Source: Hamiltosporidium tvaerminnensis FI-OER-3-3 (lineage: Eukaryota > Fungi > Microsporidia). From it: 64,000 nucleotides of DNA. Below the pieces are notes generated by a model. That model was not told the DNA's origin. It saw only the letters and a program-made list of their open reading frames with translations, and did not search any database. Positions 36,871-63,157 of the stretch are shown here, in pieces. Numbering within the stretch: position 1 is the first letter of the stretch; each line of letters opens with the position of its first letter. A program made the position numbers and the translations under genes. The stretch is taken from the NCBI GenBank assembly GCA_022605425.2, contig CM061246.1, positions 124,001 to 188,000 of the forward strand, in the 5' to 3' direction.

Positions 36871-36899
36871 AAAAATATAATACAAATGACATAAATCTA

Positions 36900-37900: not shown

Positions 37901-38135
37901 TGAACTATTTATCAATATGATTTAAATAAAGATTTATAAAAAATTTTCTGTTCGAAAATATTTTTGATGAAAAAGATACATTTTCTGAGGTTTTTAAATG
38001 CTGTAAAATCGTTGGTTTTTTTGCAAAATGAAATAATTGCAGATTTGAGTTTTATTTAAATTTCCAATTCAAAATGCCATATATTTTATTACAATATTGC
38101 TAATACAATTTAAATTTTTTGAAAAAACAAAATTT

Positions 38136-38938: not shown

Positions 38939-38999
38939 AATGGTTGAAGGGAAGAAATTGTAAAAAATATGATGTGATAAGTATATCCTTAGGTGAAAT

Positions 39000-39731
39000 G
39001 GTGGAGGGAGGATAACCACATAAAAAACTTTCTGCTTGGCAATGAGTGTGTGAAACTGGTGTGAGGTCATTGTTTGGATTTTTGGTAGGAATACAACCAC
39101 ACTACATCTTCGGTTGTTCCATGGGAGTTGTTATGAGGAGGAGAGGTCTAAGAAATGGAGAAACTTTTTCTACAAATTTATTTGTAGTTTTTTATGTAAC
39201 CAGATTGCAGACCGCAGTTGAGCATGTAGGTAATTGCCGTGTAAAAGCATGGAAACCTAGCTTTGTTCACTCGATTTAGAAGACTTAGCGCCTGAGTGAT
39301 ATAAAAATAAAACCCTTTGAAGCCGGGAGAGCTAAGTAGCAGATTATACCTGTTGGTATGACATTGCACTGTCTAGGTGGACCCCATGTAAATCCCTGAA
39401 ATATATCTTAGCTAGAAGTTTTTCGGGTTCAGAAAGTGTAGAGTAAGTGGGAATGCTGCATAGTCTTGGGGGAGCCCAGGGGGGGCTTCGGCCTTCGATC
39501 ACACTCCATGCAACGGACATTAACGAACTCCGGGCAACTGCCTCGCCTATTAATTAGGTTCTACACACCTGGTAGATGAAAGGCTTTGGGACGTAGGTAT
39601 CGCAGGGGTTGCTGATGGAGTTTTGGGGTAGAAGTTATTTATGTTAAACCTAGAACTGCGTTAATGTCATGAAAACAAATATAACACTTGCCACTGTTTT
39701 AAAAAAGATGTGATGCTTTTAAATAAAGTCT
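39000..39731 (+). mobile_element. Family A reference copy with 11 bp TSD
   Basis: ttaggtgaaat at 38989-38999 and 39732-39742; no TIRs and no long ORF. Confidence 0.95.
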
Positions 39732-39881
39732 TTAGGTGAAATATTATATAATTTTCAATAACGAAAGCTAATTTCAAAACATCAATTTGATTAAACTGAT
39801 CATTTGATTTACAAACAGCTTTAGATATTCTAAATGATCAATTTTTTAAAAAAACGAACAAATAATTCTTTATAAGGTCTA

Positions 39882-40108
39882 ATTCATTCACGGCACTACA
39901 GCTCTGCACGAGCCTTGGCTTCCCTAGGCAATACCGCTTAGCTGTCTCTTTCCAGCGGGTTCGTTTACATTTTCGGGTTTCGTAACAAGGTGGTTTTAAA
40001 GGGTGAGTTGTTAGCTCTACGCCCAATCAGAGGGATTGGTTCCTTTTACTCACCTCTTAAGACAAGCAGAGAATACACCAAGCCAAATCTACCCCCGGAA
40101 TGGAGGAG
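39882..40108 (-). mobile_element. Family B copy
   Basis: attcattcacggcactacagc...gggtgagttgttagctctacgcccaa; degenerate TSD tataa(a)ggt. Confidence 0.85.
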
Positions 40109-41468
40109 AATATAAAGGTTTTATTAGAAAAAAGTAAACGATCAGAATCAAATTTCTTAGCATCAAACAAATCGAATGAAAGAAACTATAAGAGATAATG
40201 AGAAATAGGAGGGTCAAATTGATTTAAAAAACCATTAGAATTCAATCTTTAAAAAAATTACACTTTTAAAATAAATAATAAAAACCAATATATTCTACCA
40301 AAAAATAAAAAAATTCGAATTTTTACAATTAAATTAACTGATTAAAATATGTGTGAAGATTTTAGTACGTTTTAATACATGAATTAGTATTTTATTGTGT
40401 CTACCTAGATCATAAGACCTTTGTCAAAAATTGTAGATTTATGAGACGAATACTCTAGCTCATACTTGCTTTGATTTTTTCGTTTTTAAAATGTTTGATA
40501 CCTACAAATTTCATCAGATTTTTATATTTTTATGCTAGTTTTGGTACATTTTTTCACTAAAAAATCACGTAATTTCTATTTGCCTTTTTTTGTTCTCATC
40601 TTTATCCTCATGTAATTTACATTTTTAAGTGCATAATATAAAGTTACAAAATATTTATAAAAAATAATAAAACATTTAAATTTCGTTATAGCCTTTTATT
40701 TATGTGTATTTTAGCAAAGTAGGTCTATTGTGTTAAGAATATCCATATTATTAGAGTTAAAATACAGAAAAAGTGTCATATATAAAGGAATTGTAAAAAA
40801 CCCAGAGCGTAATATAGAACACGGGGATAAATAAAATAAATTATTCTCTCAAATCTTTCTTTAAATTTTTTATGCGCTGGAATTTTTTTTCTTTCAGTTC
40901 CTTTCTTTCTATTTTTATTTCTATTTTAATTTTTTCTCATTTTCATATATCATTTTATAGAATTTTTTATTTGCTTTTACATTTTCTTTCTTTATTTACT
41001 TTTTTATTCTTCCTTTTAATTTTCTTACTTTTTTGATTTTAGTTTGAACTATTTGTTTTTTTTATTAAAATCGTTTATTTCTTGCAATGTGTTGCTTTCC
41101 ACCTAAAACACTTGTGTTTACCATTAAAAAAAAACCAAATTGAATTTTTCCAGCCTTCATACGATGTATCCTTTGTAACGATCTACTAAAATATACTTTT
41201 AGCCAGGATAAAATTCATATGGAGAGAGACTCAGTTGCTGATAGGTTTTGTTTTTAAAAAGGAATAAAATAAATTTACCGCGTAGCTTTTAGTTAATTTC
41301 CGTTCAAATTCTATACCTTTCTCATAGAAACATTATTTTCTTCTTATATTAGCCTTATATTAACGGTATAAAATTTTTCAATGACTACTCCTCCATTTAG
41401 ATAATTCAGTTAAATTTAACTTTATATTTTTTTAAATTTGATTTTTTTTCATATCCAACTAAAATATA

Positions 41469-42199
41469 TCGATTTATAATTCCATTTATTAAGAAAATAT
41501 CACATCTTATTAGAAATTGGCATATGTTTTATTTGTATTCATAACATTAACCATTCTAGTTTTTGCCTAGATTATTTATCACACACAATACCCTGGTTAT
41601 CCCTTAGATACCAGCATTGGAAAGCTTTCCATCCTCATATGTATAGAACTCATTAAATGAGCGAGTTAGTTGCCTGAAGTTTGTTTAATGTATGTTATGA
41701 GGAGTTTGAACTCAACATGCCCGGATTTAAGCTTTCCTAAAACCAGAGTCATTCACACCCACTCTATACTCCAAGCTGAATGAACTTCGAGCTAAAATAT
41801 ATCTCGGCATTTAGACGGAGTCCACTTAAAGATTATAATGTCATACCAACAGGTGTAAGCTGCTATTTAGATTTTATCGCTTCTTAAAAATCCAATTTTT
41901 TGTATCTGCCACGCGATAGGCCTTCTAAAAAGAGTGAGAAAGGTTAGGTTTCCATGCTTTTACATAGCGATTACCTACAAGTTCTCTTGCGGTCTTCAGT
42001 TTAGTTACATAAAAAACTACAAAATAAATTTATAGAAAAAGTTTTGCCATTTCTTAGATCTTCTTTTTCTCATACAAATCACATGTATAACCGAAGCTGT
42101 AGTGTGTTTCTATTCCAACCAAAAATCCAAACAATGACCTCCCACCATTTCGCATACTCATCGCCAAGCAGAGAGTTTAAAATTTATATTCATCATTCC
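41469..42199 (-). mobile_element. Family A full-length copy with 16 bp TSD (1 mismatch)
   Basis: atccaactaaaatata at 41453-41468 and atccaaccaaaatata at 42200-42215. Confidence 0.88.
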
Positions 42200-42249
42200 A
42201 TCCAACCAAAATATAAGCTAATTTTAAATTTTAGAAAATAATTAAGGGG

Positions 42250-42455
42250 TTAAGAGAGGATAACCACATTAAAAACTATCTGGTTGGCAATGAGTGTGTG
42301 AAATTGCTGTGAAAATTATTGTTGACATTTTGGTGGGATATTAAACACGTTGGATCTATAGAACAATCCCCTACAATCCCTAATTAAAACATATTAAAAT
42401 GATTGGAAAATTCCCACTTGTTCATCTACTACACCGAAAGATAGAAGAGGAATGT
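42250..42455 (+). mobile_element. A' subfamily copy, head-to-head with the 41469-42199 copy
   Basis: gaggataaccacattaaaaactatctggttggcaatgagtgtgtgaaa then the same alternative body as 27235. Confidence 0.7.
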
Positions 42456-42640
42456 AATAAGTTAGCTTAGTATAAAATAATTGAGAATCCTTAAGAATCC
42501 GTAAGAATAATTTAAAATCATTAAACATAAAATTCCACACCCATCCTTTTAGCACCTACAACTTTTTTTCTTATAACCTTTTTAAAACATAAAAGAAATA
42601 AATATTAAAAGAAATACTCCATTAATTTAAAACCCCTTCC

Positions 42641-45600
42641 ATGAAAATATCTCCAACCTTTAAAAAACATATTTCTACTTTCTATCCATTAAACACCGAC
42701 ATATCCATACATATAAATACAATATATTCTATTTTAACAGACGACTTACCAAATAAACATCTACGCATTGAACAGTACATTTCACAACCCATCACACTAT
42801 CTGTATACACCACTCTCTACAATCTAGCACAAGAAAATCTAACACATACCGAATCACAAAATATTCTTTCTCACAATAAATCTGATTCTTCTTCAAATGA
42901 ACGATCAAACTCAAATTTTATTCCCAAAAACCCAAATAATTATTTATACCCAACTATAAACTCAAACAATTCTTTAAAGCCGAATATTTCTTTAAACCCA
43001 ACTATAAACTCAAACAATTCTTTAAACAAAACAATAAAATTACCGCCAAATTCCACAGTATTTCCATCAAAAAATTACCTTTCAATAAAAATACCACCAA
43101 ACCCAACCAAAATAGAACAACCTAACCCTATTCTAACAGATTCTAATTCATCACAATTGCTTAATTTACTTTACCAAGTCATGCCATCTTCATTCTCCTT
43201 AACACAGTTACAGAAAAGTGTTATACCATCTGTTCTTTCCAATAGAAATTCTCTTTTTATTTCTCCTACTTCTACAGGTAAAACTATAGTACTTCTACTT
43301 TTTCTATTACAAGAACACATATCACTAACCAATGGCAATAAAGATAGTAATAGCAATAAAGATAGTAATAGTAATAGCGATAGAGATTGTGATGGTAATA
43401 AATATAGTAATAGTACAAATACCAATCCTTATATTAACCCTAATGTTAACCCTAATATCAATACTAATCCTACTAATAAAAATCCTTGTATTAACCCTAA
43501 TACTAATACTAACAATCCTTATATTACTAACAATAATACTACATTTGTTCTTGTTGCACCGTTCAAAGCACTTATTCATCAACACTACAAATTTTTTAGT
43601 AAAATTTGTAATAAAATAGGTGTAAGAGTTATTGAAATAACAACTGACAGTGACATAAACAATACTAATATCTTTAATAGTTATAATTATAATAAAACAC
43701 ATAGAAATAATAATACGTTCTATAGTAATTCATCTTCTAATTCTAATCCTTTCATTTCTTCTGATACGTGCATAAAAAGAAATAATATTATTAAAGAAGT
43801 AGATCAATGCATAAACAGAACCGATAATGATTATATTGCTGATAGAGAGGGTTTTAGTAATAGAGAGTATATTACTAACCCTAACCCTAACCCTAATAAA
43901 TGCATAAACACTTTTAATACTAATACTAATACAAGTAGTAATTCTAACCCTACACCTAATAAATGCATAAACACTTTTAATACTAATACTAGATCTAACC
44001 CTACACCTAACCCTAATAAATGCATAAACAATACTAATCCATATACTAACCCTACACCTAACCCTAATAAATGCATAAACACTTCTACTCTTATAATAAC
44101 AACACCAGAGAAATTAGAAATATTAACGAGAAACAAAAATATATTTTATAATTTACTATTAATTGATGAAATACATATTATTTCATCTAAACGTGGTGTT
44201 TATTTAGAAAGTATAATATCTAGATTAATATATAATGGTATATCACGTATTGTAGGTGTAAGTGCTACTGTTAGTAATTGGAAAGATTTTTGTAATTTCT
44301 TACGTGTTGAAAAGAAGGATTGTTATGTTTATGATGAACGGTACCGACCTATTAAAATAGGATATGAGTTTGTAGAGACTAAGGGTGTTAATAACAGTAT
44401 AGATGATTATAGGGGTGTTAGTGACAAGAGTAGTAATATAAAGGGTGTTAGTGACAAGAGTAGTAATATAAAGGGTGTTAGTGACAAGAGTAGTAATATA
44501 AAGGGTGTTAGTGGCAAGAGTAGTAATATAAAGGGTGTTAGTGACAGTATAGATGATTATAAGGGTGTTAACACCAGTACTAATAAACAACAGGGTGTTA
44601 ATAACATACCTTATAAACAACACCCTTTTAATACTAACAATACCCTTTTAAACAACATACTTATAGAAATAACTTTAAAACATATAAATTGTAATTCTAT
44701 TCTTATTTTTACACATTCAAAAAAAGATACATATGATACTGCTTTATATATTATTAATAATAAAATACTAAATAATATACTTAATAAAGAAGATAGAAGT
44801 AAGACTGTTAATAGAGCATTGTTAATGTTTAACGTGGAAGAAGAAGTAAGTAATTATAAGGGTCTTAATAACAGTACTAGTAATTATAAGGGTCTTAATA
44901 ACAGTATTGGTAATTATCACCCCATTAACAACACTATCAATTATCACCCTCTTAACCACAGTACTAATTCTAATATAAGTCATTTATCTATTAACTGTAT
45001 AATACCCCTGTTATATATAGGAATAGGTATACATCACGGTGGGTTACAATCTAACGTAAGAAACCTTATAGAATATTTATTTAAGAAAGGTGTTATTTCT
45101 ATATTAGTAAGTACTTCTACATTAGCATGGGGTGTTAATTTACCTGCTTGGTGTGTTATTATTAAAGGGTGTTTATATAAAAACAGTAAAGAATTGAGTG
45201 ATGTAGAGGTTATGCAGATGTTTGGGCGGTGTGGAAGAACAGGATATGATAAGAGTGATAGTAATAATAATTATAGTAATGATATAAGTAGTAAGACAAA
45301 TAACAACAAAAATGAACCTAACCCTAGACTAACCCTAAATAAATGCATAAACAGTAATACTGCTAATAATAACACCCTATCCAACCCTAACCCTAGCCTA
45401 ACCCCAAATAAATGCATAAACAGTAATACTGCTAGTAATAACACCCTATCCAACCCTAACCCTAGCCTAACCCTAAATAGATGCATAAACAGTAATACTG
45501 CTAGTAATAACACCCATTCTAATCCTAACCCTACCCTAACCCTAAATGGATGCATAAACAGTAATACTACTAATAATAACACTATTAACACCAGTACTAC

Positions 45601-47554
45601 TAACAATATCCCTACTGCTATTCTTATTTCCAATACTAACATATATAAATACATATCTCTAATAACTAACACCTTACCTTTAATATCATATCTTAACACT
45701 TATTTTATAGACTTTTTTAATAGTCTTATATTTACAGGTGTTAATACTTATAATCAGTTACTTTTACATTTAAAAAATACTTTTTATTATTTTACTACTT
45801 ATAAGAAGGGTGTTAATTATAATAGTATAGTAGAAGAGGGTGTTAGGATATTAATAGAGTTAAAGTATGTTAAACAGTGTTATAATTATAAAGGGGAGGA
45901 TATAGAGAGAGTAGGGGGTGTTAATAACAGTATAGATTATTATAAGGGTGTTAATAATAAGGATAGTAATTATAAGGGTGTTAATAATCTATCTAATAAA
46001 CAACAGGGCGTTAATAAGAAGGATAGTAATTATAAGGGTGTTAATAATTTATCGAATAAACAACACCCCTTTAATACTGGTACTAATATACAACACCCCT
46101 TTAATAACAGTACTACTAAACAACACCCCTTTAATAACAGTACTACTAAACATCACCCTCTTAATAACAATACTATTAACAACACTGTGTTATTTCCTTT
46201 GGATAAATGTGTCTTATCTTGTAAATATTTTATATCTGTTAATGACTTTAACATATTATACAACAATCTAGAAATAGGTGTTTTAGAAGAGAATATTGTT
46301 ATTTACATATTAAGTAGATTATCCTTATTTAACGAGGAAGACAGTTTGGATGATAATTCTTACTCTTCTAATAATAGGGTTACCACTAATAACTCTAATA
46401 ATTCATATATTAGTAATCCTATTAATTACCCTTCTATTAATACTTCTATTAATACCTCTGTTAATAACACACTATCTGATAACCCTATTAATACCTCTAA
46501 TAATACCTCTTCTAATAATAATTCTATTAGTAATACCTATCCTAGTAATAATCCATTATCTGATAATACCTATCCTATTAATATTAATACATTAAATAAC
46601 CTTAGAGATACTCTCTATGGATTATCTTATATCTCTAAAACTATTAAAAATAATTTAATAAGAATACTTAGGTGTTGTTTAGATATTTGTATAACTAAAC
46701 ATATATTTAGTATTTTTAAAATTATTATACGATTTATACGATGTATTGAGTATAATTCTTTATATGGTAAATCAATACTTAGAAGTATTAATAACAGTAA
46801 TAATAGATATAATGGAGATAATATTAGTAGGGATAGAGATAGTAATAGGGATAGAGATAATATTAGGGATAGAGATAGTAATACTAGAGATAGTAATAGT
46901 CGGGATAGAGATAGTAGGGATAGAGATAGTAATAGTAGAGGTAACTTATATAGTAATAATCTATATGGTAATCTATATGGTAACAACTATAATAGTGTTA
47001 CTCTGGCTATAGAAAGACTGGAGAAACTTTGTATACCGTTTAGTGTTTTAAAAGAATTTACACTTAAAGATTTAAAAAGTGTATTACCTGTTGGTTATAA
47101 AGAAATATACTCATTGATATCTAAAGTACCTTGTTTTAAAGGGATAGTAAGGAGAGGTGAAAGAGGTAGGGACCATGATTATAAGGATTATAAAAATTAT
47201 AATAATGATTATAAGGATAATATGGATAGTAAGGATTATAATAGTCATATATTAACTAATAATAGTAATGATATATTAACGAGTAATGATTATTCTGTTT
47301 ATAGAGTATGTGTTACTCTGTACTATCGTAAGGATGAAGGTGTTTTTGAAAGTAGAAATACAGAAAATGTACATTTATGTGTAACAGATGGGTTGGATGT
47401 GTGTATGTTGGGTTATAAGTATTTAAGGCTTGTGGAAGGAGATAATTGGTGTGAGGTATGTGTTTTAAATGTTAAGTGTAGTGTTTTAAGGTTTGTTGTG
47501 TTATGTGATAGGTTTAATATTGAAGAGGAGATTTGTGATTTGGAGGTTTTATAA
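42641..47554 (+). CDS. BRR2: Ski2-like DExH helicase, Brr2-type, single cassette, with ~10 low-complexity inserts
   Basis: PTSTGKT, VAPFKAL, TTPEK, IDEIH, SAT, GIHHGGL, STSTLAWGVNLPA, QMFGRCGR. N-terminus resembles the Brr2 plug region and LPxxS..Y..I.IP. Slh1/Mer3 not excluded. Confidence 0.7.
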   Translation: MKISPTFKKHISTFYPLNTDISIHINTIYSILTDDLPNKHLRIEQYISQPITLSVYTTLYNLAQENLTHTESQNILSHNKSDSSSNERSNSNFIPKNPNNYLYPTINSNNSLKPNISLNPTINSNNSLNKTIKLPPNSTVFPSKNYLSIKIPPNPTKIEQPNPILTDSNSSQLLNLLYQVMPSSFSLTQLQKSVIPSVLSNRNSLFISPTSTGKTIVLLLFLLQEHISLTNGNKDSNSNKDSNSNSDRDCDGNKYSNSTNTNPYINPNVNPNINTNPTNKNPCINPNTNTNNPYITNNNTTFVLVAPFKALIHQHYKFFSKICNKIGVRVIEITTDSDINNTNIFNSYNYNKTHRNNNTFYSNSSSNSNPFISSDTCIKRNNIIKEVDQCINRTDNDYIADREGFSNREYITNPNPNPNKCINTFNTNTNTSSNSNPTPNKCINTFNTNTRSNPTPNPNKCINNTNPYTNPTPNPNKCINTSTLIITTPEKLEILTRNKNIFYNLLLIDEIHIISSKRGVYLESIISRLIYNGISRIVGVSATVSNWKDFCNFLRVEKKDCYVYDERYRPIKIGYEFVETKGVNNSIDDYRGVSDKSSNIKGVSDKSSNIKGVSDKSSNIKGVSGKSSNIKGVSDSIDDYKGVNTSTNKQQGVNNIPYKQHPFNTNNTLLNNILIEITLKHINCNSILIFTHSKKDTYDTALYIINNKILNNILNKEDRSKTVNRALLMFNVEEEVSNYKGLNNSTSNYKGLNNSIGNYHPINNTINYHPLNHSTNSNISHLSINCIIPLLYIGIGIHHGGLQSNVRNLIEYLFKKGVISILVSTSTLAWGVNLPAWCVIIKGCLYKNSKELSDVEVMQMFGRCGRTGYDKSDSNNNYSNDISSKTNNNKNEPNPRLTLNKCINSNTANNNTLSNPNPSLTPNKCINSNTASNNTLSNPNPSLTLNRCINSNTASNNTHSNPNPTLTLNGCINSNTTNNNTINTSTTNNIPTAILISNTNIYKYISLITNTLPLISYLNTYFIDFFNSLIFTGVNTYNQLLLHLKNTFYYFTTYKKGVNYNSIVEEGVRILIELKYVKQCYNYKGEDIERVGGVNNSIDYYKGVNNKDSNYKGVNNLSNKQQGVNKKDSNYKGVNNLSNKQHPFNTGTNIQHPFNNSTTKQHPFNNSTTKHHPLNNNTINNTVLFPLDKCVLSCKYFISVNDFNILYNNLEIGVLEENIVIYILSRLSLFNEEDSLDDNSYSSNNRVTTNNSNNSYISNPINYPSINTSINTSVNNTLSDNPINTSNNTSSNNNSISNTYPSNNPLSDNTYPININTLNNLRDTLYGLSYISKTIKNNLIRILRCCLDICITKHIFSIFKIIIRFIRCIEYNSLYGKSILRSINNSNNRYNGDNISRDRDSNRDRDNIRDRDSNTRDSNSRDRDSRDRDSNSRGNLYSNNLYGNLYGNNYNSVTLAIERLEKLCIPFSVLKEFTLKDLKSVLPVGYKEIYSLISKVPCFKGIVRRGERGRDHDYKDYKNYNNDYKDNMDSKDYNSHILTNNSNDILTSNDYSVYRVCVTLYYRKDEGVFESRNTENVHLCVTDGLDVCMLGYKYLRLVEGDNWCEVCVLNVKCSVLRFVVLCDRFNIEEEICDLEVL
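44411..44546 (+). repeat. Coding minisatellite, 30 bp unit (KGVSDKSSNI) x~4.5
   Basis: aagggtgttagtgacaagagtagtaatata repeated. Confidence 0.95.
45315..45590 (+). repeat. Coding minisatellite, 69 bp unit (NPNPSLTxNKCINSNTAxNNTLS) x4
   Basis: aaccctaaccctagcctaacccyaaataaatgcataaacagtaatactgct repeated. Confidence 0.92.
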
Positions 47555-47949
47555 GAAATATTATTTAAGAATTTGGTTGAAAATATATTATTTTATTGGA
47601 AATATAGTTAAGAATTATAGTTGTAAGAATTATGGTTGTAAGAAATATGGTTTTATGAGAAATATGATTCTTTAGGAAATATAGTTTTATGAGACAAGTT
47701 ATAAATGTAAGATTATGAAGGTAAAATTGTGATTATGAAGTACCTAGAATGTCTTTAAATGTGGAAATTTTGTATTAATTTGTTGTATTTATGATTTTGA
47801 AATATTTTTATTTGAAAATAAAGTTATAGATTTTTTTGTTGCTTTAAAATGTAAATCTTTAGAATAAATATGTATTTTGGATAATAAATTAATCAATGAT
47901 GTAATTAAATATAGTTAGATACTAATTTTATTGTTTTTAAAGATTATTT

Positions 47950-48560
47950 TATAAACTAAATCCGACTTCTTAGAGCTATAGCTTTTGAAGAGATTGAGTT
48001 TATTTAATGATTATAGTCTATGCTTCTTCTTAAAGTAATAGAAATTTCAATTGCCATGCATTAGAGTTGTTATGTTCTTTTCAGGTCATATAGTCATTTT
48101 TTTGCAATCTACTTTGTCCTCATATACCCTCAGATGCAGATCTACGAATTTAAATAACACATTTTTCGGTCCGATTTCTTTCTATACTTCCTAGCAGTTT
48201 AAATCTTTTTTTTTCATACTGTTGATCAAATTAGCTTCTTCATAATATTCATATACTTCATGATTCAATCTAATTCTTGACTTGTCATTATCCAATTCAA
48301 ACCATATATTCTTCTTAGTATCTTTCTTTCTTATATATTGGGGTGTTTTGTGCTTTTCCTCATAACTAATGTTTCGGAGGCATATGTACCGTAGGTCCAA
48401 GAATAGTTTTATAATTTTTTTTTCGTATTTCAATTTACCAGCTTTAGCTTCAGTAAGCGTTGCAGAGCAAAGTAGATCTTGTTGTCTGGTTTTATTCTTT
48501 TATGTGATTTTATTCTGAAGGGTCATTTGCATTTGTAGTCATTACTTTATCTTGCCATCG
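47950..48560 (-). mobile_element. Possible decayed N-terminal portion of an RLE LINE ORF
   Basis: NIWFELDNDKSRIRL resembles the N..FE.D.K.FYR.L segment upstream of R4-like RTs. Confidence 0.3.
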
Positions 48561-49037
48561 GAATACAACGGTTCGAAGTAAAAACTAAATATACAAAAAG
48601 AAGACAGTTTTAATAGAAAAATATAAATTAAATGTCTTGGAAATAATTCTGGTTTATATTGTATATATAAAAACCAAATGTATCTTGAATTTAAATTATA
48701 TGTAAGATTACTTAGAATTTTATTATAACAATTTGACTTCTTTAAGAAAATATAAATTGATGTAGAAGATTTATCAATTTATGAAAGTAAAAAACATTTC
48801 TAGCTTCTTATATAAAATTTTATCGTTAAATTATAGGTTTTCTATTTAAATATTATGATTTAAAATAGAGCGATAATGGTTTTGTCTTTAAACTCAGATA
48901 CATCATTTTTGCAGTTTTCCTAAATTTTTTCAATAAAACTAAATAAAATACCTTGTGGTAGATTTTTAAGCTTAATATTTTTTTAGTTTCATACTTTTTT
49001 ATATTTGAAGTTTTAGTACGATTTAGTAAGTTTTCTA

Positions 49038-49570
49038 TTTAATAAAATTCAGGGATAAAATATTTTTACCATTTTTATGTATTTTCCTCTACCTCTTTAA
49101 CCACATCTGTCTCTTATTCCAAATCCAACTCTTCATTTATGTTATTGATCGGCCCCTCCTTGTGAAATAAGGGGTGTAGAATTTTTTGGTTTTAAATTTT
49201 TTGCACCATCTTCCTCTCTCTTCGCTTCTTTTAAAGGGGGTGTTGGTTCCTCATGCATCTCTGATCTCATAATAAGACTCATCAACGCTCTCTCCCAGCT
49301 CTCTTCGGCATATAGTCCTGACTCAAGTCCTCTTCGTCGATCAAAGGAAATTGTTTCGACCGTCTTCTTAAGTACTATAGACTGAATGTATGCCTTTACA
49401 TTCATGTGTATTTCTAATCTTTTAAGATGAGATTTATTGTATTTTGTCACAATACCGTCCCAGGTCATCACATAAAGGATTATATCAACATTACACTTAT
49501 AAATAAGACCCAAATCATTGGCTAGCAGGTCATACTTCCTAAGTTTTTCAGTTTCAACTATTTTAAGTGA
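49038..49570 (-). mobile_element. Family C 5'-truncated copy
   Basis: Near-identical to 6950-7480; degenerate TSD acgatttagYaa at 49018 and 49571. Confidence 0.9.
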
Positions 49571-49799
49571 ACGATTTAGCAATATTTTTAAATTAAAAAA
49601 GAGTTTTTTGCAATTATTTCGGTCTAAAAACAATAAATATTTCATTGTCGTGGGATTTGTATAAATATTTTGTTTTTTTAGTTTTGATTTTTAATCATAT
49701 TTCTATTTATACTTTTTACAGTTTAACTAAGAATTATTCGTGATTTTAAAAACAATATTAAATAAAATGAAAAAAATCCATTTTTGAAGAATAATATAC

Positions 49800-51060
49800 C
49801 GTGTATCTCAACTAGTAATTGCATCTAATGGTCCTTAAAGTGTTTTTTTCTAATATTTTATCACAAACCATCCCAGGTTATAAATTTGTACTTATAAATA
49901 ATATATTATCTTTCTCTACATTATTTCCATAAATATAAAAGCTCTACTCATATTCACACTTTCTTGGGTTTTCAGTTTTCTTCATCTGAAGCAAATATTC
50001 ATTAAAAAAACAATTGTCTATCTCAATATTTTTAATTTATTTCATTTCTATTTATAACCATAGTGGAGGGAGGATAACCACTTAAAAAACTTTCTGCTTA
50101 GCAATGAGTGTGTGAAACTGGTGCAAGATTATTGTTTGGATTTTTGGTGGGAATATAACCACACTACATCTTCGGTTGTTCCATGGGAGTTGTTATGAGG
50201 AGGAGAGGTCTAAGAAATGGAGAAACTTTTTCTACGAATTTATTTGTAGTTTTTTATGTAACCAGATTGCAGACCGCAGCTGAACATGTAGGTAATTGCC
50301 ATGTAAAAGCATGGAAACCTAGCCTTGCTCACTCGGGTTAGAAGACTTGGCGCCTGGGAGATATAACAATTAAAACCATTTAAAGCCAGGAAAGCTAAGT
50401 AGCAGGTTATACTTGTTGGTATGACATTGCACTGTCTAGGTGAACCCCATGTAAATCTTTGAAATATATCTTAGGTAGAAGTTTATTGGGTTCAGGAAGT
50501 GTAGAGTAAGTGGGAATGCTGCATAGTCTCGGGGGAGCCCGTGTGAGGTTCGGCCTTCGATCACACTCCATACAACGGACATTAACGAACTCCGGGCAAC
50601 TGCCTCGCCTATTAATTAGGTTTTACACACCTGGTAGATGAAAGGTCCCGGGACGTAGGTATCGCAGGGGGTACTGCTGCTGTTTTGAGGTAGAAGTAAT
50701 TTATGTTAAACGTAGAACTGCGTTAATGTCCTCAAAACAAATATAACACTTGCCACTGTTTTAAAAAGATGTGATACTTTTAAATAAAGTTATTTTATAA
50801 TAATTATATCTTTTCTAATCATCAATACCGAGAGTACGAAAGGACTGGAATATGTAATTAAGAATATCTTATCTATCAACAAATTTGACATTAAATATCA
50901 TATTTTCCAATTCTAAAAACCATTTTTTTAAGAATTATTTGAACTGAGTAACTCCTAATTCGTTTTGAGGACTTAAATTTATATATATTAGTAAAAATTT
51001 TACTTTTCAATATAATATCTAGTATAGTCATGCCCAAGCATTTTCTCACACCGAGTCATA
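49800..51060 (-). mobile_element. Old family C copy interrupted by a family A insertion
   Basis: tcacaaaccatcccaggt (49861) and tgaactgagtaactcctaattcgtttt...tagtcatgcccaagcatttt (50940-51045) are colinear with 57140-57540. Confidence 0.65.
50063..50790 (+). mobile_element. Family A full-length copy
   Basis: Highly similar to 39000-39731 end to end. Confidence 0.95.
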
Positions 51061-51380
51061 CACATATATTCAGAATAATAAGGTATTTGTGCATTAATTG
51101 TTCTAAAATATATGCGTATGACTCTTTTTATTTCTTACATTCATTATATTTCATATTTTTCTATACATTTCATATATATCTCATCACCCATCGCTAACCT
51201 TCTTTCTTAATATTCATTACCCTCCCTTCATATTATATTCATTACCTCTTCCTTACTTTTCTTCCATATATCTTTCTTTCTTTATATCTCATTACCCTTA
51301 TTCTTCTATACATCGCATTACCCTTACATTTTTCTTAAAATTTATATTTTTCATTTAAAATAAAATAAATAAAAACACTC

Positions 51381-51389
51381 AAACCCATG
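51381..51389 (+). promoter_or_regulatory. Microsporidian CCC start-proximal motif (representative example)
   Basis: aaacccATG. CCC also lies within ~25 nt of the ATG in CCA1, H3, ERO1, TFIIS, RPL27, 27933, 34311, BRR2, ELP2 and RPT5; GGG in B56. Confidence 0.8.
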
Positions 51390-54214
51390 GAAAAACAAGA
51401 TGAAATAGAACTAATCCTTACCAGATTATCAGAAGCATCTCCTCAAATACAAACCACATCCCTACAATGCCTACAAAACCTAATAACAACATCACCCATC
51501 GTATTCAACCACCCATCCTTAAAACAGACACTTACTGATATTCTTCCTTCTCTAGACACACAAAACCAAAAATATTTATCAGATCTTCTTAGTTTTCTGT
51601 ATGTCGTTGAAGAAAACGACAGAAGTCTCCATTACAGACTGAATGGTGGTGTTGTTCCTATTTATACGTGTAATCATCAATATGTTGTTAAATTGTTACA
51701 TTCTATTCTTGAAATATCACCACGTACGAGTGTAGAAGACATACCGGTTAATGAACTACGTGAAATAGCCAAGCATTACAACATAATAATGTCATCTTCT
51801 ACTTCCTCTTCCACTTCAAATACTTCCTCTTCTTCTGTTTCTCTCCCTCCATCTTCCTCTCTTCCACCCTCTTCTTCCCTCCCTCTTAATAATCTTTCAA
51901 ATAATTTGCTTATTCTTGCAGTTGAATGCATTTCTTTTTTATTTTCTCACAATTCTGAATGTGAAGGAATAGATTTTCTTTTGGAATTAAATTTACTTTT
52001 TCTTGTCACAGAATATATAAACAGTCACAATTTTCAAAGAATAAAATTATATTTAAGTGAGATGTCTTATTATATACCAATAGGACACGAATTAATTTCA
52101 ATTTATACTGAACATAAGTGTTATGTAGATTTATTATTATTACATCTCAAATCTAATGACATATCTCATTGTATTCATGTGTTTAATATGGATATGCCTT
52201 ATAAAACGAGGTTACAGTGTGCTTTTATATTGGGAAGACTTGGGTTAGGAGACAGATTATTGGGGGTGTGAATAACACCCCGTTAATTACTGCAGCTTTA
52301 TCTAACACCCTTCTTTCTAAGACATTAAATTTTGTATTTGAAGATTTAGAAATAACACCTCCCAAACACATAACCGAATTTATAAAAGGAACCAATTTGT
52401 TGAAGCAGGACAAGGATTTAGCTTTAAAATCCTTTGTGTCTGTTTGTATTTCTAATGGGTTGGTACATATGGGATATACAAGAGATTTATTGTTTTTTCC
52501 TGGAGAAGAAGACAGTCACGAGCATCAAATAGAAGCGGGTCTTTTAAAAAGTGACAGAACCGAGTTAATCAGTTTACTTGGGTCGATGGGACTGATTTAT
52601 AGTTTTACAGGTAAAGGAATTGAAATTTTTAATGATGCAATATTTAATGGCGGTCCTTTTAGAAAAATGGGTGGTATTTTAGGTATGGCGATAGCTCAAG
52701 GTAAATTATACGATGAGAGTCACACTTTGATGGCAATTGTTAACGATTTAGAAAGTACAGAAAGTTTTATAGAAAAGCTTGTAATTCTTCTTTCTATAAA
52801 TATTGTGTATTGTAATACCAACAACGAAATGGCCGCAGAATTTATTGTAGATTTTATTTCTTGTACTGACAGCAGTGAAGTGATTGGTTATGGAATATTT
52901 GTGTTAGGCAGTGTTAAATGTGGTGTTGGTGATACAAGTATATTTGTTATTATGAGAGAGTTGTTGAGTAAGATTGATGTTAGTAATGGATTCTATTCCT
53001 ATGCACTTCTTGGTATGGGACTTCTATTTCTTGGATGTGGTGGTGAAATATTGGCTGATCAGTTTGGTTTAAGTATATCTGAGATACAAAACCAAGCTGT
53101 TATTTCAAATTGTGGTGATATAGAAGAAGAAATTAAGAGTGAAGAATCTGAGAACAAGTATTTTGGGAGTAAATCTGAGAATAAGTCAGGGAATAAATCT
53201 GGGAACAAATCTGGGAATAACAAAGACAATAACAAACCCAATAACAAACCAAATAACAAAGATATTAAAGATACCAAACATAAAGACAATAATGATGAAA
53301 ATATTCTTCACAGCAGTGACAATTTCATTGAAGGTGAAAATTCCTTTTCTTTTTTACCTCGTCCTGTACAAGTAATAATCAAGGGATGTGTATTTGTAGG
53401 AACAGGAAATACAACTCTTATAGAATCTATTCTAAGTGAGTGTATATCTTGTATGGATGATAAAATATTAATCGCTTGTTCTTTTATTTCTATTGCCTTA
53501 ATTTCTATGGGAGATGATTTGTGTGTAAAAATGGTTTTTAGATTATTAACTAGTTCTTGTTTATTAGAGAGTGGATATGTAAAACAAATGGTTAATATAT
53601 GTCTTGCCTTGTTATTTCCTAGTACCTGTGATTTAGATGTTATAGATTTTATAGGTAAACAAATTCATAGTCCTGATGAAGATATAATGTTAAGTGCTAT
53701 TGGTTCTTTAGGTGTTATTGGTAGTGGAAGTAATAACAGTAAAATTTCTAATTTATATGAATCTCTTTACAGTTACCATGGAAAGAATTTAAAGGTAATT
53801 TTTCTTGTTAAGGTAGTTCAAGGGTTATTACACTTAGGTAAGGGAATTTATGGGTTAAAGTGTTGGGGGTATGATAAGAGGGTGTTATTTAAGAGAGGTA
53901 TTATAGGGGTGTTATCTTACTTATGGTTATTTATAGGTGATGGTAGTTTAGGTGTTAAATATCCTTTTATGTTATATAATATAGTAACAGGTGTTAGTCC
54001 TAAGTATGTTGTTACAGTGGATGAAGAGGGTAATTATTTGAAGGGAGGTGTTAAGGTAGGTAATGATGTTAATGTTGTTGGAGTAGCTGGGCATCCTAGA
54101 AGGATATGTGGTGTACAGGTTCATAATTTACCTGTTATATTGGGAGAAGGTGAGAGAGCTGAGGTTGAGGATTGTGGGGATGTTGTTTATGTTGAAGATG
54201 TTGTTGTTGTGTAA
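51387..54214 (+). CDS. RPN1: 26S proteasome subunit Rpn1 (PSMD2), split by a 1-nt frameshift at the G5 run 52262-52266
   Basis: HQYV.KL, HNSECEGIDFLLE, QCAFILGR, PC repeats, GSGSNNSKI, QGLLHLGKG, VKVG..V.VVGVAGHPRRI.G.Q.H..PV.LGEGERAE. Confidence 0.92.
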
Positions 54215-54313
54215 TAAAGAGATGTTCTTTTAGATTTTATTTATTTATATTTGTATGATGTGGAGCTTTGTCTTAGGTTTTCTTGTATTTTGTTTATTTA
54301 TTTATTCTTTTTT

Positions 54314-54478
54314 TTGTCTTATATTTTGTTTATGCGTTTGTAAGTTTAAATTTTTTTTAAAGTGGTTTTTTTATAGGTTCGGTAAGAGTCTGTAAGGTTG
54401 TCTTATATTTTGTTTATGCGTTTGTAAGTTTAAATTTTTTTTAAAGTGGTTTTTTTATAGGTTTGGTAAGAGTCTGTA
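54314..54478. repeat. 84 bp tandem duplication between convergent RPN1 and ELP2
   Basis: ttgtcttatattttgtttatgcgtttgtaagttt...ggtaagagtctgta x2. Confidence 0.92.
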
Positions 54479-54621
54479 GAGTTAAATTTTTTAATAGTTT
54501 TTTAGTTATAAAATTGGTTTTTTTTTAGAATGTTTTATTTACTTAAAGATTATTTATATAAGAGTTATATGTTTAATACAAATTAAAGTGTTTTTAAAAA
54601 TATAAAATATTTTTTTATTTT

Positions 54622-56595
54622 TTATATGGAAATTTGAAAAACTTGTATTAAAGAATCTTTACCACCGGTGGCTAGAAGAGTACCATGTTGATCAAATTCC
54701 AAAACATTGATACGGTTGGTGTGTGCTTGTATCTTACTATGGAATACTATTTGATTATAAAATGTGTATAAAAATATCTCGCCGTTTTCTGTTCCGATTG
54801 CTAGTATTTTATTACCGAATGAGATTGTGGTTGCTTCGGATGTAAAAGTATTTTCAAATATTAATTTAAGTGTTGGTATTTGATAAATGAATACTTTTTT
54901 GTCTCGAGACACTGTGGCAACTAAATTTTCGGTTGGTGAGAAACTACAGTCCCATATGCATCTTTTATGGTCAGTGAGTGTTTGGAGAAGAGATATGTAT
55001 GGGTATGTGGTGGTTACTTTATAAATACTTGCTGTTTTGTCTCTGGAAACTGCCATTAAATAGTTGAATTGGGGTGAGAATCTTATACGTTGGATTCCTA
55101 GTCGGTGAACTTTTATGTAATTTAATTTTTGAAACGAATGAGAAGTAATAAAAATGCCTGAGAAATCTAAAGACGAAGATTTGTTGACTGATGCGATGAA
55201 ATATGGTGAGACGGCGATATCTTCAATTTCAAAGTAATGAATAAATATTTTGGATATTTCGTGAAAGAGTGTGGAGTGTGTCAGAGTGTATTCGTTTATT
55301 TGTAAATCCGATGTGTGATAGTCATTGGATATTTCGTTGGTCAGTGAAAGTTCTGAGTGGATGGATTTTGGTTTATAAATTTTTAAATCTGATTGGTGAC
55401 TGATCGTTGAAAAATCGAATTCGTGATTCTTTATAAAAATTTGTGTGGCCTGGAAAACACGAAGTTGGGTTTCTTGGCCGGCGCTGATAAAACTAAAGGT
55501 GTCTTTTTTTAGAAACCGTGCTACTTTTAAAGGATATCCGTGTATTTGTGCGCGTGCTATTTCTTTTTGCGAATTTATATTAAATATACGGGCTGTGGAG
55601 TCCAAGGATGTAGAGAGAAGATAGTTGTTGTACCAATCGAGACTTGTTATTTCGTCTTGGTGTCCTGAGGTGCAGTAGACCAGAGAATTTGATGTGTATT
55701 TGTAAAAACCACCAAAGTAGGATAAACAAAATAGACTGTCTTTAGATTTTACGATGTCAAAAAAACCCTGGTTTTTCGATGCGATCCCGCCTAATCTAAT
55801 ATCGTTGGACCAATCGTTGTTTTTATATTTCCATAAAATACAAGAATCATCTTGAGAAACAGAATAAATGTCGTCTTCTTCTGTCCAAATACAATTATAA
55901 ATCCAATCTCTATGGCCAGAGAGTGTCTTTACGAGTGTAATTGAATATGATGTGTGATCCATAATAAATAATTTATCACCGTTTTCATTTCTGTTTATTT
56001 TCCATATTTTTATAAATTTGTCTTGAGATGCTGTCAAAAAATATATATCTTCTTTGATATAGTGACACTTTATAGTTGTAATACTGTCTTTATGAGCATT
56101 AAATGTAAGTTTTGGTGTAAAATTTGAATTATTTATTTGAAAAACAATAATATTGCCAGAATATGTTCCAGTCACTTGTAAATATTCATTGTTTAGGTAA
56201 AATATGTCTCCACAAGTTATAAGTTCGTTTTTAATTTCAAAATATTTTACTGCTTTTGATTCTAGAAAATATATTTTGTTAAAACTTCCACAAATATAAA
56301 TATCTTTGTGTGGTATTTTAGAGATTAATTGGACTGAGTCATCAAGTTTAAATGTTTTTAACTGTTGATGTGTATAAAAATCGTAAACGTTTATGTTTCC
56401 TTGATCGTCACCAGCGATAATCATATCATCTATACAATTCAAAACAGTTATAAGAGATTGATTGGTGATTATTACTTCCTTTTTATTTTTAAGAAGAATG
56501 ATATTATTTTTTGCTGCAAATATAAGTGTATCGTTATAATAACAAGTTACATGGTTTCTTCTTGTAGAGCCAGCAGCTAAAAATATATTTTCCAT
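54622..56595 (-). CDS. ELP2: Elongator complex subunit Elp2 (WD40)
   Basis: TASQDKFIKIW, GHRDWI, RLGGI, ARAQIHGYPL, LSLTN, HRLGIQRIRFSP, AVSRD, HKRCIWDC. Confidence 0.9.
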   Translation of the reverse strand: MENIFLAAGSTRRNHVTCYYNDTLIFAAKNNIILLKNKKEVIITNQSLITVLNCIDDMIIAGDDQGNINVYDFYTHQQLKTFKLDDSVQLISKIPHKDIYICGSFNKIYFLESKAVKYFEIKNELITCGDIFYLNNEYLQVTGTYSGNIIVFQINNSNFTPKLTFNAHKDSITTIKCHYIKEDIYFLTASQDKFIKIWKINRNENGDKLFIMDHTSYSITLVKTLSGHRDWIYNCIWTEEDDIYSVSQDDSCILWKYKNNDWSNDIRLGGIASKNQGFFDIVKSKDSLFCLSYFGGFYKYTSNSLVYCTSGHQDEITSLDWYNNYLLSTSLDSTARIFNINSQKEIARAQIHGYPLKVARFLKKDTFSFISAGQETQLRVFQATQIFIKNHEFDFSTISHQSDLKIYKPKSIHSELSLTNEISNDYHTSDLQINEYTLTHSTLFHEISKIFIHYFEIEDIAVSPYFIASVNKSSSLDFSGIFITSHSFQKLNYIKVHRLGIQRIRFSPQFNYLMAVSRDKTASIYKVTTTYPYISLLQTLTDHKRCIWDCSFSPTENLVATVSRDKKVFIYQIPTLKLIFENTFTSEATTISFGNKILAIGTENGEIFLYTFYNQIVFHSKIQAHTNRINVLEFDQHGTLLATGGKDSLIQVFQISI

Positions 56596-56719
56596 TAATA
56601 ATGGGTTTTCTAAATATTTTATTTTCCAAGAATTTAAATCAATTTTAATTTTGCGAAATTATAAAAAAACTATTTAAAAATAAAAAATTGAAGATTTTTG
56701 TTTCAAGATACTTAAATTA

Positions 56720-57671
56720 TTTAATAAAATTCTGGGTTAAAATATTTTTACCATTTTTATATGTTTTCTTCTACCTCTTTAACCAATTTTGTTTCTTCTT
56801 CCGAATCCGACTCTTTATTTATGTTATTGGTCGGTTCCTCTAAAGTGGTTCCTCCTTGTGAAATAAAGGGTGCTTTATTTTTTGGTTTAAAATTTTTTGC
56901 ACCATCTTATTCTCTCTTCTCTTCTTTTGAAGGGGGTGTTGGATCCTCATGCATCTCTGCTCTCATAATAACACCCATTGACGCTCTCTCCCAGCTCTCT
57001 TCGGCATTTAGTCCTGACTCAAGTCCTCTTCGTCGATCAGAAGAAATTGTTTCGACGGTCTTCTTAAGTACTATAGACTGAATGTATACCTCTACTTTAT
57101 GTGTATTTCTAGTTTTTTAAGATAAGATTTATGGTATTTTGTCACAATACTGTCCCAGGTCATCACATGGGATTATCTCAACATTACACTTATAAATAAG
57201 ACCTAACTCATTGGCTAGCAGGTCATACTTCCTAAGTTTTTCCGTTTCAACTATTTGAAGTGAATTTTGGGAAGTGATTCCTACTTTAATGTGTGTTATC
57301 TTATTCTTCTTCTTATCTAAAATAAATATTTCGGGTCTGTTATTCCGAATTTTAACATCAGTTTTTATTCTGGTGTTCACTCTTATCTCTGCATACTCAT
57401 TATCAAAAATTTCTTGAACTGAGTGATACCTAATTCGTTTTAAAGACTTAAACTTATATCTATTTAAGAGATGTAAGTGTAGGCATCTAACCACCTCATT
57501 ATGCCGTCTGGTGTAGTCAGGACCTAGAATTTTTTCACATTTAGTTGCTAGATGATCTACAGTCTTACCAGACTTCCCGCATTGTTGACACATACCATCT
57601 GCTCCCCATAATACATTTCTATCCTGGATATAGCAGAACACTGCTTTATTTCGTGGCCTAATATTCCCTTT
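56720..57671 (-). mobile_element. Family C 5'-truncated copy with CCHC and RLE domains
   Basis: CQQCGKSGKTVDHLATKC, YTRRHNEVV, RPEIFILD, K..KY; TSD aagatacttaa at 56705-56715 and 57672-57682. Confidence 0.92.
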
Positions 57672-61942: not shown

Positions 61943-63157
61943 ATGTCTCTAGAAAAATTGAAGGATGTAATTTCAAATATTGCAAACGAAGATCCCGAAA
62001 TAGTTGATGAGCGAATTTCACTTTTAGGTTCTGAGTTGCGTGGTTTAAAAGGAGAAGTAACAAATGTAGACTATGAAATCGGTATTAGGCGTACATCTAC
62101 CAGTGAAAACTATGAAAAAATCAAACTTCATAAAACATTACCATATCTTGTTGCCACTGTCATTGAAGTTCTGTATTGTGAAAAAACAGGAGATGTTAAT
62201 GTTGTATTGATGACATCTACTCGTGTGAATATGCTTATTCTTAATCCTGGACTGGTTGATCCAGCTAAACTTTTACCGGGAACACTGGTTGGTGTACAGA
62301 AAGAGAGTAACGTAATTTTGGAAATAATCGAACCGGAATTTGATACAAGAGTCAAGGCTATGGAGTTAGAAGAACGGCCGTTGGAGAATTATGAAGATAT
62401 TGGTGGATTGGAGAGGCAAATAGAGGAACTTAATGAAGCAGTCGTTTTGCCATTTTTGCATCCTGAAAAATTCATAAAAATGAATATTCGCCCACCAAAA
62501 GGTGTTTTAATGTATGGACCACCTGGTACAGGTAAGACACTCATGGCCCGTGCATGTGCTTCCAAGACCAAGGCAACATTTATTAAATTGGCTGGTACTC
62601 AACTGGTTCAGATGTATATCGGAGAAGGTGCACGCCTCGTTCGTGATACATTTGCACTTGCAAAGAAAAAGAAGCCGACTATAATATTTATCGATGAAAT
62701 TGATGCAATCGGTACAAAAAGAGTGGATTCCGATCGTAATGGAGATAGAGAAGTACAAAGAACCATGCTTGAACTTCTTAATCAATTGGATGGATTTGCG
62801 GTCAACGATGACATAAAAATAATTGCAGCAACTAACCGGCCTGATATTCTTGATCCTGCGCTGTTGCGAAGTGGAAGATTGGATAGGAAAATAGAATTCC
62901 CTCTTCCAAATTTGGAAGGAAGGAAAAGAATTCTACAAATACATTCACGTAAAATGGTTGTTCAGGATAATGTTAACTATGAAGAATTGGCGCGATCAAC
63001 TGAAGGTTTTAACGGGGCTCAATGTAAAGCTGCTACCGTCGAAGCTGGTATGCGTGCTTTAAAAAAGAAAAGAGAGGAAATAACTCAGAATGATTTTATG
63101 GATGGAATACAAGACGTATCTGCTGCAAAAAAATCCAGATATCATTATTATACGTAA
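61943..63157 (+). CDS. RPT5: 26S proteasome AAA ATPase Rpt5 (start likely ATG 61943 after CCCC)
   Basis: [56 protein letters not shown]. Confidence 0.96.

What the first reader, a model, noticed from the sequence alone, without database searches (positions are those of the whole stretch)
51100..55700. Sharp C-rich to G-rich strand-skew switch independent of gene direction
Seen (hand counts on selected 60-nt lines, + strand): 51421-51480 C21:G4; 54121-54180 G22:C4; 54961-55020 G20:C3. The last lies in ELP2, which is on the opposite strand, so transcription direction does not explain it. Flanking non-coding DNA follows the same skew, and amino-acid composition shifts with it (Rpn1 N-terminus T/P/S/Q-rich, C-terminus G/V-rich). 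Established: a C-to-G skew switch is the mutational signature of a fixed bidirectional replication origin. Inference: a strong fixed origin or other bidirectional mutational focus near 52-53 kb.
Basis: partly seen in the sequence, partly recalled or inferred. Interest (0 to 1): 0.7.

Follow-up and report, generated by a model that had tools for sequence, protein, structure and literature searches.

The report
Mirror mutation scars in microsporidian genes
In a water-flea parasite, some long housekeeping genes are C-rich at one end and G-rich at the other on the same DNA strand and carry inserted repeats whose G-type units nearly always come before their C-type units, likely the scar of repeated short, error-prone DNA repair synthesis rather than of an ordinary replication origin.

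Summary
The skew is real and mutational. The window is from the microsporidian Hamiltosporidium tvaerminnensis. The three hand counts are exact. The bias holds at synonymous sites, in non-coding DNA and on the opposite-strand WD40 gene, and it has pushed Rpn1's amino acids beyond its homologues. The switch is not sharp: 52.0-53.8 kb is neutral at third positions and the extremes lie at the gene edges. It is not unique: a second domain spans the helicase gene at 42.5-47.9 kb. It is local: genes at 1-34 kb show no positional skew. Inside such genes, inserted 30-nt repeats have the opposite polarity, G-type before C-type, in 89 of 91 mixed arrays from 39 Hamiltosporidium gene clusters (read from proteins). 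An ordinary fixed origin explains neither the amplitude, the short range nor the nested reversals. Best reading (0.4): recurrent short outward repair or fork-restart synthesis inside long genes. Rivals: origin-proximal mutagenesis (0.25), Candida-like centromeric chromatin (0.12), transcription (0.1), telomerase (0.08). No description was found in six literature searches.

The parts
51100..51386 (+). C-rich low-complexity non-coding left edge of the Rpn1 domain; cut on the left by repetitive DNA ending near 51,050
   Evidence: C66:G6; loose contig ends at 51,050 and high depth left of it
51387..54214 (+). Rpn1 proteasome subunit gene (950 aa in P0001); the window copy lacks one base near 52,261, probably an assembly error
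   Evidence: Pfam RPN1_RPN2_N and RPN1_C; P0001 98% identical, named H. tvaerminnensis; 3 of 3 runs laid have the extra base
51387..52000 (+). C-ward rewritten 5' part of Rpn1, with a Ser/Pro low-complexity insert (aa 117-166)
   Evidence: third positions C33:G12; insert and z -2.3 against homologues
52001..53800 (+). Neutral core of the ramp, with two nested G-then-C junctions
   Evidence: third positions C59:G72
52263..52281 (+). Miniature G-then-C hairpin resembling the array junction motif
   Evidence: -7.7 kcal/mol, 4 of 200 shuffles fold as well (1 of 5 stretches folded, the other 4 not significant)
53141..53320 (+). Low-complexity insert (aa 580-660 of P0001), G-rich left half and C-rich right half, length-variable between isolates
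   Evidence: sequence; insert absent in homologues; +12 and +15 nt in run X17; differs in P0001
53801..54621 (+). G-rich right edge: Rpn1 3' end plus intergenic DNA with an 84-bp tandem duplication
   Evidence: third positions C2:G30, intergenic G63:C14; duplication D17
54622..56595 (-).
   Evidence: Pfam; sense third positions C82:G16 near half, C59:G21 far half, difference not significant, p 0.14
42519..47918 (+). Second, stronger domain spanning a 1637-aa DEAD/DEAH helicase gene: C-rich left edge, G-rich right edge, 15 alternating blocks
   Evidence: HMM blocks and counts; Pfam DEAD and Helicase_C
44370..46170 (+). Three arrays of a 30-nt unit, each with G-core units followed by C-core units in direct orientation
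   Evidence: 22 units listed, 15 G and 7 C; repeat families D1, D2; 20-35 times single-copy summed depth in 4 runs, a crude sign of a genome-wide family
43430..45545 (+). Telomere-like CCCTAA units in C-rich halves of helicase inserts
   Evidence: 14 in the ORF against 1.6 on average and 9 at most in 1000 codon shuffles; telomere repeat TTAGGG in this species (PMC10542269 passage)

Best explanation
The Rpn1 switch is one mild example of a family of few-kilobase mutational domains in long Hamiltosporidium genes, likely left by recurrent short tracts of break-repair or fork-restart DNA synthesis that start at many points inside the gene and run outward in both directions. Shown: near every boundary (array junction or domain edge) the strand whose 3' end points at the boundary is G-rich and C-poor. 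Inferred: that strand is the newly made or single-stranded one and gains G (and some T) at the cost of C and A. Summed over a zone of start points, the middle cancels, the left edge turns C-rich and the right edge G-rich, and the bias spills 2-2.5 kb into the next gene. Where opposite tracts stall or are joined, slippage would add 30-nt units on both sides, and template switching in the short inverted repeat around the three-base core would flip GGG to CCC, giving G-then-C arrays that age outward. Weak selection in a drift-prone genome would let this rewrite essential proteins.
For: Neutral centre with extreme edges. Short range: no skew in genes at 1-34.3 kb, neutral DNA right after the helicase domain. 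Skew coincides with tandem insertions in both window genes. G-before-C in 89 of 91 mixed arrays, 77 of them strictly G..GC..C; 20 of 21 in the clusters found only by the second search. Flanks of units get more G-coded with distance left of the junction (-0.14 at rank 1, +0.72 at rank 5 or more) and stay C-coded on the right. G and C units are direct repeats with an in-place core flip (mean flank identity 0.56 direct vs 0.46 inverted; best match direct for 7 of 7 C units). C-terminal 100 aa more G-coded than N-terminal in 16 of 16 array proteins not labelled partial (about 14 genes), against 3 of 9 ordinary window genes; the amino-acid proxy tracks third-position skew (rho 0.86 helicase, 0.75 Rpn1). 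Inserts vary in length between isolates. Precedent: break repair gives strand-asymmetric C>G and A>G changes, duplications and template switches within about 2 kb (PMC7615360 section 8 and passages); break-induced replication exposes nascent single strands and promotes slippage at inverted repeats (PMC9262586 abstract).
Against: No direct evidence of breaks, forks or repair. The 40 of 83 variant rows shown are unpolarised and uninformative (right zone: 7 involve G, 6 involve C; variant density not raised). The human precedent leans on translesion polymerases that E. cuniculi lacks (Rev1, zeta, eta; PMC1851970 passages); Hamiltosporidium was not checked. Simple resection around a two-ended break would give G-then-C everywhere and cannot give the C-left, G-right edges or the G-rich ELP2. 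Why long genes host the zones is unexplained, and the first protein search was limited to 900-2865 aa. G units outnumber C units 651:319, which may be search bias, selection or a transcription-linked asymmetry. All evidence outside the window is from proteins, not DNA.
Confidence: 0.4

Rival explanations
1. Replication origins or initiation zones lie inside these genes. The leading strand is G+T-rich and mutagenesis is strong only in the first 2-3 kb; arrays are barriers where forks from either side stall.
For: C-to-G polarity with opposite AT skew at the helicase left edge and Rpn1 right edge; extends across ELP2; the cumulative maximum at 48,074 lies between the two domains as a termination site would; E. 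cuniculi ends are G+T-rich outward (PMC4704409 passages); E. cuniculi keeps only replicative polymerases (PMC1851970 passages).
Against: Amplitude ten times that of yeast origins and no long arms (PMC3459929 section 16); 41 kb of the window has no domain while two lie 8 kb apart; the G share of arrays does not rise along genes as a fork-direction ramp predicts (14 up, 13 down, 4 ties of 31); budding-yeast polarity is the reverse.
Confidence: 0.25
2. The domains are dispersed centromere-like chromatin sites, as the small regional centromeres of Candida, in a possibly holocentric genome.
For: Same polarity (negative to positive), amplitude and about 3-kb range as C. albicans centromeres, which also have raised GC (PMC2924309 passages, PMC3459929 section 16); Rpn1 domain GC 0.307 vs 0.265; no centromeres found in microsporidia, holocentric or epigenetic ones proposed (PMC12449221 passages).
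Against: Candida sites are intergenic and about one per chromosome; these lie in essential genes, two within 8 kb and at least 39 gene clusters; helicase domain GC is 0.269, not raised.
Confidence: 0.12
3. Transcription-linked damage: cryptic divergent transcription from inside long genes, plus read-through into ELP2, leaves the non-template strand single-stranded and G+T-rich.
For: Domain edges lie 120-290 bp before the start and 360-400 bp after the stop of both genes; the bias ends at the ELP2 5' end (56596-56716 C8:G10); the 3' G bias is more regular than the 5' C bias.
Against: Needs antisense transcription through each 5' end; ordinary genes of the window show little sense bias (C354:G429); does not explain the sharp G-to-C junctions in arrays.
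Confidence: 0.1
4. Telomerase or a similar enzyme adds G-rich repeats to both 3' ends of breaks, which are then joined head to head; the arrays are decayed interstitial telomeres.
For: G-then-C order is what 3' addition at both ends gives; 14 CCCTAA in the helicase ORF, above all 1000 codon shuffles; the unit core resembles the telomere repeat.
Against: C units are not whole-unit inversions of G units; only 1 TTAGGG in the helicase against 14 CCCTAA; no CCCTAA or TTAGGG in the Rpn1 domain; cannot explain synonymous skew in conserved cores and ELP2. Plausible only as a source of some seeds.
Confidence: 0.08
5. Assembly artefact, codon bias or selection on protein or RNA structure.
For: The window has one probable single-base error in Rpn1; part of the G/V richness of Rpn1 is shared by the family (homologue means 0.11-0.29).
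Against: Contigs of 4 runs from 3 studies match the domains; bias is present at synonymous and non-coding sites and on both gene orientations; the shift exceeds all homologues tested.
Confidence: 0.03

Closest known systems
Skew jumps at small regional centromeres of Candida albicans and relatives (PMC2924309; PMC3459929)
   Same: C-to-G polarity, very large amplitude, about 3-kb range, opposite AT skew, disputed origin explanation
   Different: Here inside essential genes, many per genome, with nested G-to-C minisatellite arrays; no centromere evidence
Replication-associated skew at bacterial, human and yeast origins (PMC3459929)
   Same: Mirror symmetry independent of gene direction; bacterial/human polarity
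   Different: About ten times the yeast amplitude, no arms of 10-20 kb, extremes at edges not at the switch, reversed relative to budding yeasts
Mutagenesis at human meiotic break hotspots and break-induced replication (PMC7615360; PMC9262586)
   Same: Strand-asymmetric gain of G from C and A within about 2 kb, with duplications and template switching
   Different: Known as rate excesses in rare variants, not as fixed 60-90% skews that rewrite proteins; relies on translesion polymerases that at least E. cuniculi lacks
Subtelomeric G+T skew of Encephalitozoon cuniculi (PMC4704409)
   Same: Microsporidian strand asymmetry; local skew inversions were there suggested to be origins
   Different: One-sided, at chromosome ends, no polarised coding minisatellites described in the passages read
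Interstitial telomeric insertions at breaks (recalled, no call)
   Same: Head-to-head G-rich then C-rich order; CCCTAA units present
   Different: Dominant unit is a 30-nt repeat with an in-place core flip, not the telomere hexamer

Membership tests
Efficient fixed replication origin | Skew switch at synonymous and intergenic sites, independent of gene direction | tested here: met
Efficient fixed replication origin | Abrupt jump with maximal skew next to the switch | tested here: not met
   neutral 1.8-kb centre, extremes at gene edges
Efficient fixed replication origin | Skew persists or declines slowly over the replicon arm (about 20 kb in yeast) | tested here: not met
   genes at 1-34.3 kb p 0.94; 47,961-48,600 neutral; 34.3-42.5 kb has no long ORF; the one gene on the right (61.9 kb) is mildly G-rich, C37:G69
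Efficient fixed replication origin | ORC/MCM binding, nascent strands, Okazaki switch | not testable with these tools
   no such data
Candida-type small regional centromere | Large C-to-G skew over about 3 kb each side | tested here: met
Candida-type small regional centromere | Intergenic, about one per chromosome | tested here: not met
   two coding domains 8 kb apart; 39 gene clusters with arrays
Candida-type small regional centromere | CENP-A chromatin | not testable with these tools
   no ChIP data
Break-repair mutagenesis hotspot | Strand-asymmetric substitutions within a few kb, with tandem insertions | tested here: met
   as fixed composition:
Break-repair mutagenesis hotspot | Mirror asymmetry in polarised new mutations and raised variant density | tested here: inconclusive
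   40 of 83 rows seen, unpolarised
Break-repair mutagenesis hotspot | Mapped breaks or single-stranded DNA; translesion polymerases present | not testable with these tools
   no genome held; E. cuniculi lacks them (PMC1851970 passages)
Interstitial telomeric insertion | Head-to-head (TTAGGG)n/(CCCTAA)n arrays | tested here: not met
   CCCTAA enriched but no matching TTAGGG halves; none in the Rpn1 domain
Known structured RNA | Rfam match | tested here: not met
   0 matches in 41-58 kb

The most novel reading that the evidence does not exclude
The domains are the functional chromosomal landmarks that microsporidia lack on their maps: dispersed initiation zones or holocentromere-like units that sit in long genes, run a strand-specific mutator strong enough to rewrite essential proteins, and can be mapped from sequence alone by C-to-G ramps and G-to-C minisatellite junctions. 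A similar C-then-G block in Conglomerata obtusa Rpn1 would make it a feature of several large-genome microsporidia.
Probability: 0.25. Interest if true: 0.85.

Novelty: new variant of a known kind. Interest (0 to 1): 0.6.

Why it matters
Origins and centromeres of microsporidia are unmapped (PMC12449221 passages on centromeres). These domains give exact, sequence-defined candidates to test, and population data for this species already exist. They also offer a second natural case of the unexplained short-range, high-amplitude skew known from Candida centromeres, and a mutational, non-adaptive route by which essential proteins of a parasite grow by hundreds of residues and shift in composition, which can also mislead phylogenetic and selection tests on these genes.

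Tried and rejected
No whole genome was held, so no genome-wide DNA skew scan. Repeat motif scan of viral contigs gave 6 loci, all unrelated on inspection; an exact motif in metagenome contigs gave 0; an Rpn1 homologue scan of metagenome contigs gave none. Prediction that the G share of arrays rises along genes failed (14:13:4 of 31). Core residues after arrays were not clearly C-shifted beyond 25 aa (skew 0.27-0.45, near the ordinary 0.3-0.55), whereas those before arrays were G-shifted (0.73 falling to 0.08 over 100 aa; part may be older insert). Whole-unit inversion as source of C units rejected. Hairpin folding of array junctions was not better than shuffles in 4 of 5 stretches. Variant spectra inconclusive. 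Rfam: nothing. The Rpn1 frameshift is not part of the phenomenon. Earlier-finding look-ups by place, by sequence and two by words returned nothing.
Full report
Identity. The window is AT-rich eukaryotic DNA. The window's Rpn1 is split by one missing base near 52,261 that 3 of 3 runs laid possess, so it is probably an assembly error. No whole genome was available.

Observation. The three hand counts are exact. Outside 42.4-56.7 kb, 192 1-kb windows have GC skew 0.02 +/- 0.12; inside, values reach -0.59 and +0.66, and all 20 skewed blocks found by a three-state HMM lie in 42,519-55,398. The bias is in non-coding DNA (C66:G6 before Rpn1, G63:C14 after it), at third positions (Rpn1 start C33:G12, end C2:G30; ELP2 sense C141:G37; background of 11 genes C354:G429) and at strictly synonymous twofold sites. 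Against 45 Rpn1 homologues (the first 45 of length 780-1160 aa among P0070-P0140, from 149 listed), the core of the last 70 residues is more G-coded than 45 of 45, the first 100 less than 43 of 44, and the N-to-C difference is the largest of 46.

First, the switch is a ramp: third positions in 52.0-53.8 kb are neutral and the extremes are at the gene edges; the G side continues to the ELP2 start and stops there. Second, a stronger domain covers the helicase gene from 120 bp before its start to 360 bp after its stop, and DNA directly beyond it is neutral (C105:G91). Third, the effect is local: ten genes at 1-34.3 kb show no positional skew (p 0.94). Fourth, inserts inside both genes have the opposite polarity. 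In the helicase, three arrays of a 30-nt unit run G-core units then C-core units (22 units); the Rpn1 insert at 53,141-53,320 and a small hairpin at 52,263-52,281 do the same. G and C units are direct repeats differing by a GGG/CCC flip between short inverted repeats, not whole inversions. CCCTAA occurs 14 times in the helicase ORF, more than in any of 1000 codon shuffles.

A genus-wide pattern. Two searches with the repeat returned 30 and 37 proteins, all named H. tvaerminnensis or H. magnivora: RNA polymerase subunit, Prp8, AAA ATPases, Sec7, IKI3, USP7, CPSF, Mtr4, Snf2 and others. Collapsed to 39 clusters with one protein kept per cluster, 89 of 91 mixed arrays have G-type units first; 43 arrays are G-only and 7 C-only, many at contig ends. 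Units become more G-coded with distance left of the junction. All 16 proteins not labelled partial have a more G-coded C-terminus than N-terminus (about 14 genes; some look like pieces of split genes), against 3 of 9 ordinary window genes. The amino-acid proxy follows third-position skew in the window (rho 0.86 and 0.75; 0.33 in ordinary genes). This part rests on proteins only. Conglomerata obtusa Rpn1 (P0085, named) has a C-ward block (residues 1-115, 9 G-ward against 33 C-ward changes relative to Binucleata daphniae) followed by a G-ward block (20 against 9; p 8e-5; boundary chosen by eye), a hint that the process is wider.

Mechanism. One rule describes all that is shown: near a boundary, the strand whose 3' end points at it is G-rich and C-poor (about G 0.24, C 0.05, A 0.33, T 0.38 against 0.13, 0.13, 0.37, 0.37; blocks were chosen by skew, so this is descriptive). 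The inferred cause is short synthesis or single-strand tracts starting at many places inside the gene and running outward. This gives a neutral centre, opposite edges, spill-over into ELP2 and, where opposite tracts stall or join, G-then-C insertions. I favour break repair or fork restart (0.4) over true origins (0.25) because of the short range, the amplitude, the dense nested reversals (median array spacing about 245 codons over 72 intervals), the tie to insertions that still vary between isolates, and the failed fork-direction prediction. Against it: no direct data, inconclusive variants (40 of 83 rows), and loss of translesion polymerases in E. cuniculi. Centromere-like chromatin (0.12), transcription (0.1) and telomerase (0.08) remain open.

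Literature seen. PMC3459929: passages and all of section 16: yeast leading strand A+C-rich, origin jump 9%, Candida centromere jump 74% fading in about 3 kb and judged non-replicative. PMC2924309: passages. PMC7615360: passages and all of section 8. PMC9262586: abstract and outline. PMC1851970, PMC4704409: passages. Term look-ups in PMC12449221 and PMC10542269 found no 'skew'; in PMC6944219, PMC12558613 and bioRxiv 10.1101/2021.11.02.466881 the single hit was unrelated; PMC12134460 and PMC11878562 do not mention Hamiltosporidium. Searches listed no paper describing these domains or arrays; I saw listings and abstract starts only, no supplements were read, and subscription journals are largely missing, so absence from print is not proven.

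Verdict. Real, mutational, direction-independent; not a sharp single switch and probably not an ordinary fixed origin. A new variant of localized strand-asymmetric mutagenesis, with an unusual nested polarity. Interest 0.6.

Noticed in passing
window 52261: One base missing relative to 3 of 3 runs laid; splits Rpn1 into two ORFs; probably an assembly error.
   Followed up: yes
window 42519-47918: Helicase gene with a stronger skew domain, many inserts and telomere-like units.
   Followed up: yes
P0085 residues 1-200: Conglomerata obtusa Rpn1 shows a C-coded then G-coded block and long Asn-rich inserts; DNA not available.
   Followed up: partly
window 49036-49645 and 56718-57593: Two related copies of a high-copy repeat (87-95% alike in pieces; very high depth) flank the Rpn1-ELP2 pair; they look like fragments of a retroelement (recalled, no Pfam match).
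   Followed up: no
window 41809-42357 and 50067-50456: Related repeat fragments in direct and inverted orientation, each ending shortly before a skew domain.
   Followed up: no
window 34311-42640: 8 kb with no ORF of 100 aa or more from ATG and locally raised GC at 35-37 and 39-40 kb.
   Followed up: no
window 30270-31229 (-): Tyrosinase-domain gene with a hydrophobic N-terminus.
   Followed up: no
window 61943-63157 (+): Proteasome AAA ATPase gene 8 kb from Rpn1, mildly G-rich at third positions (C37:G69).
   Followed up: partly
P0032: Record annotated as acetyl-CoA synthetase begins with a Ser/Ile-rich stretch unlike its relative P0017; possibly a mis-called frame.
   Followed up: no
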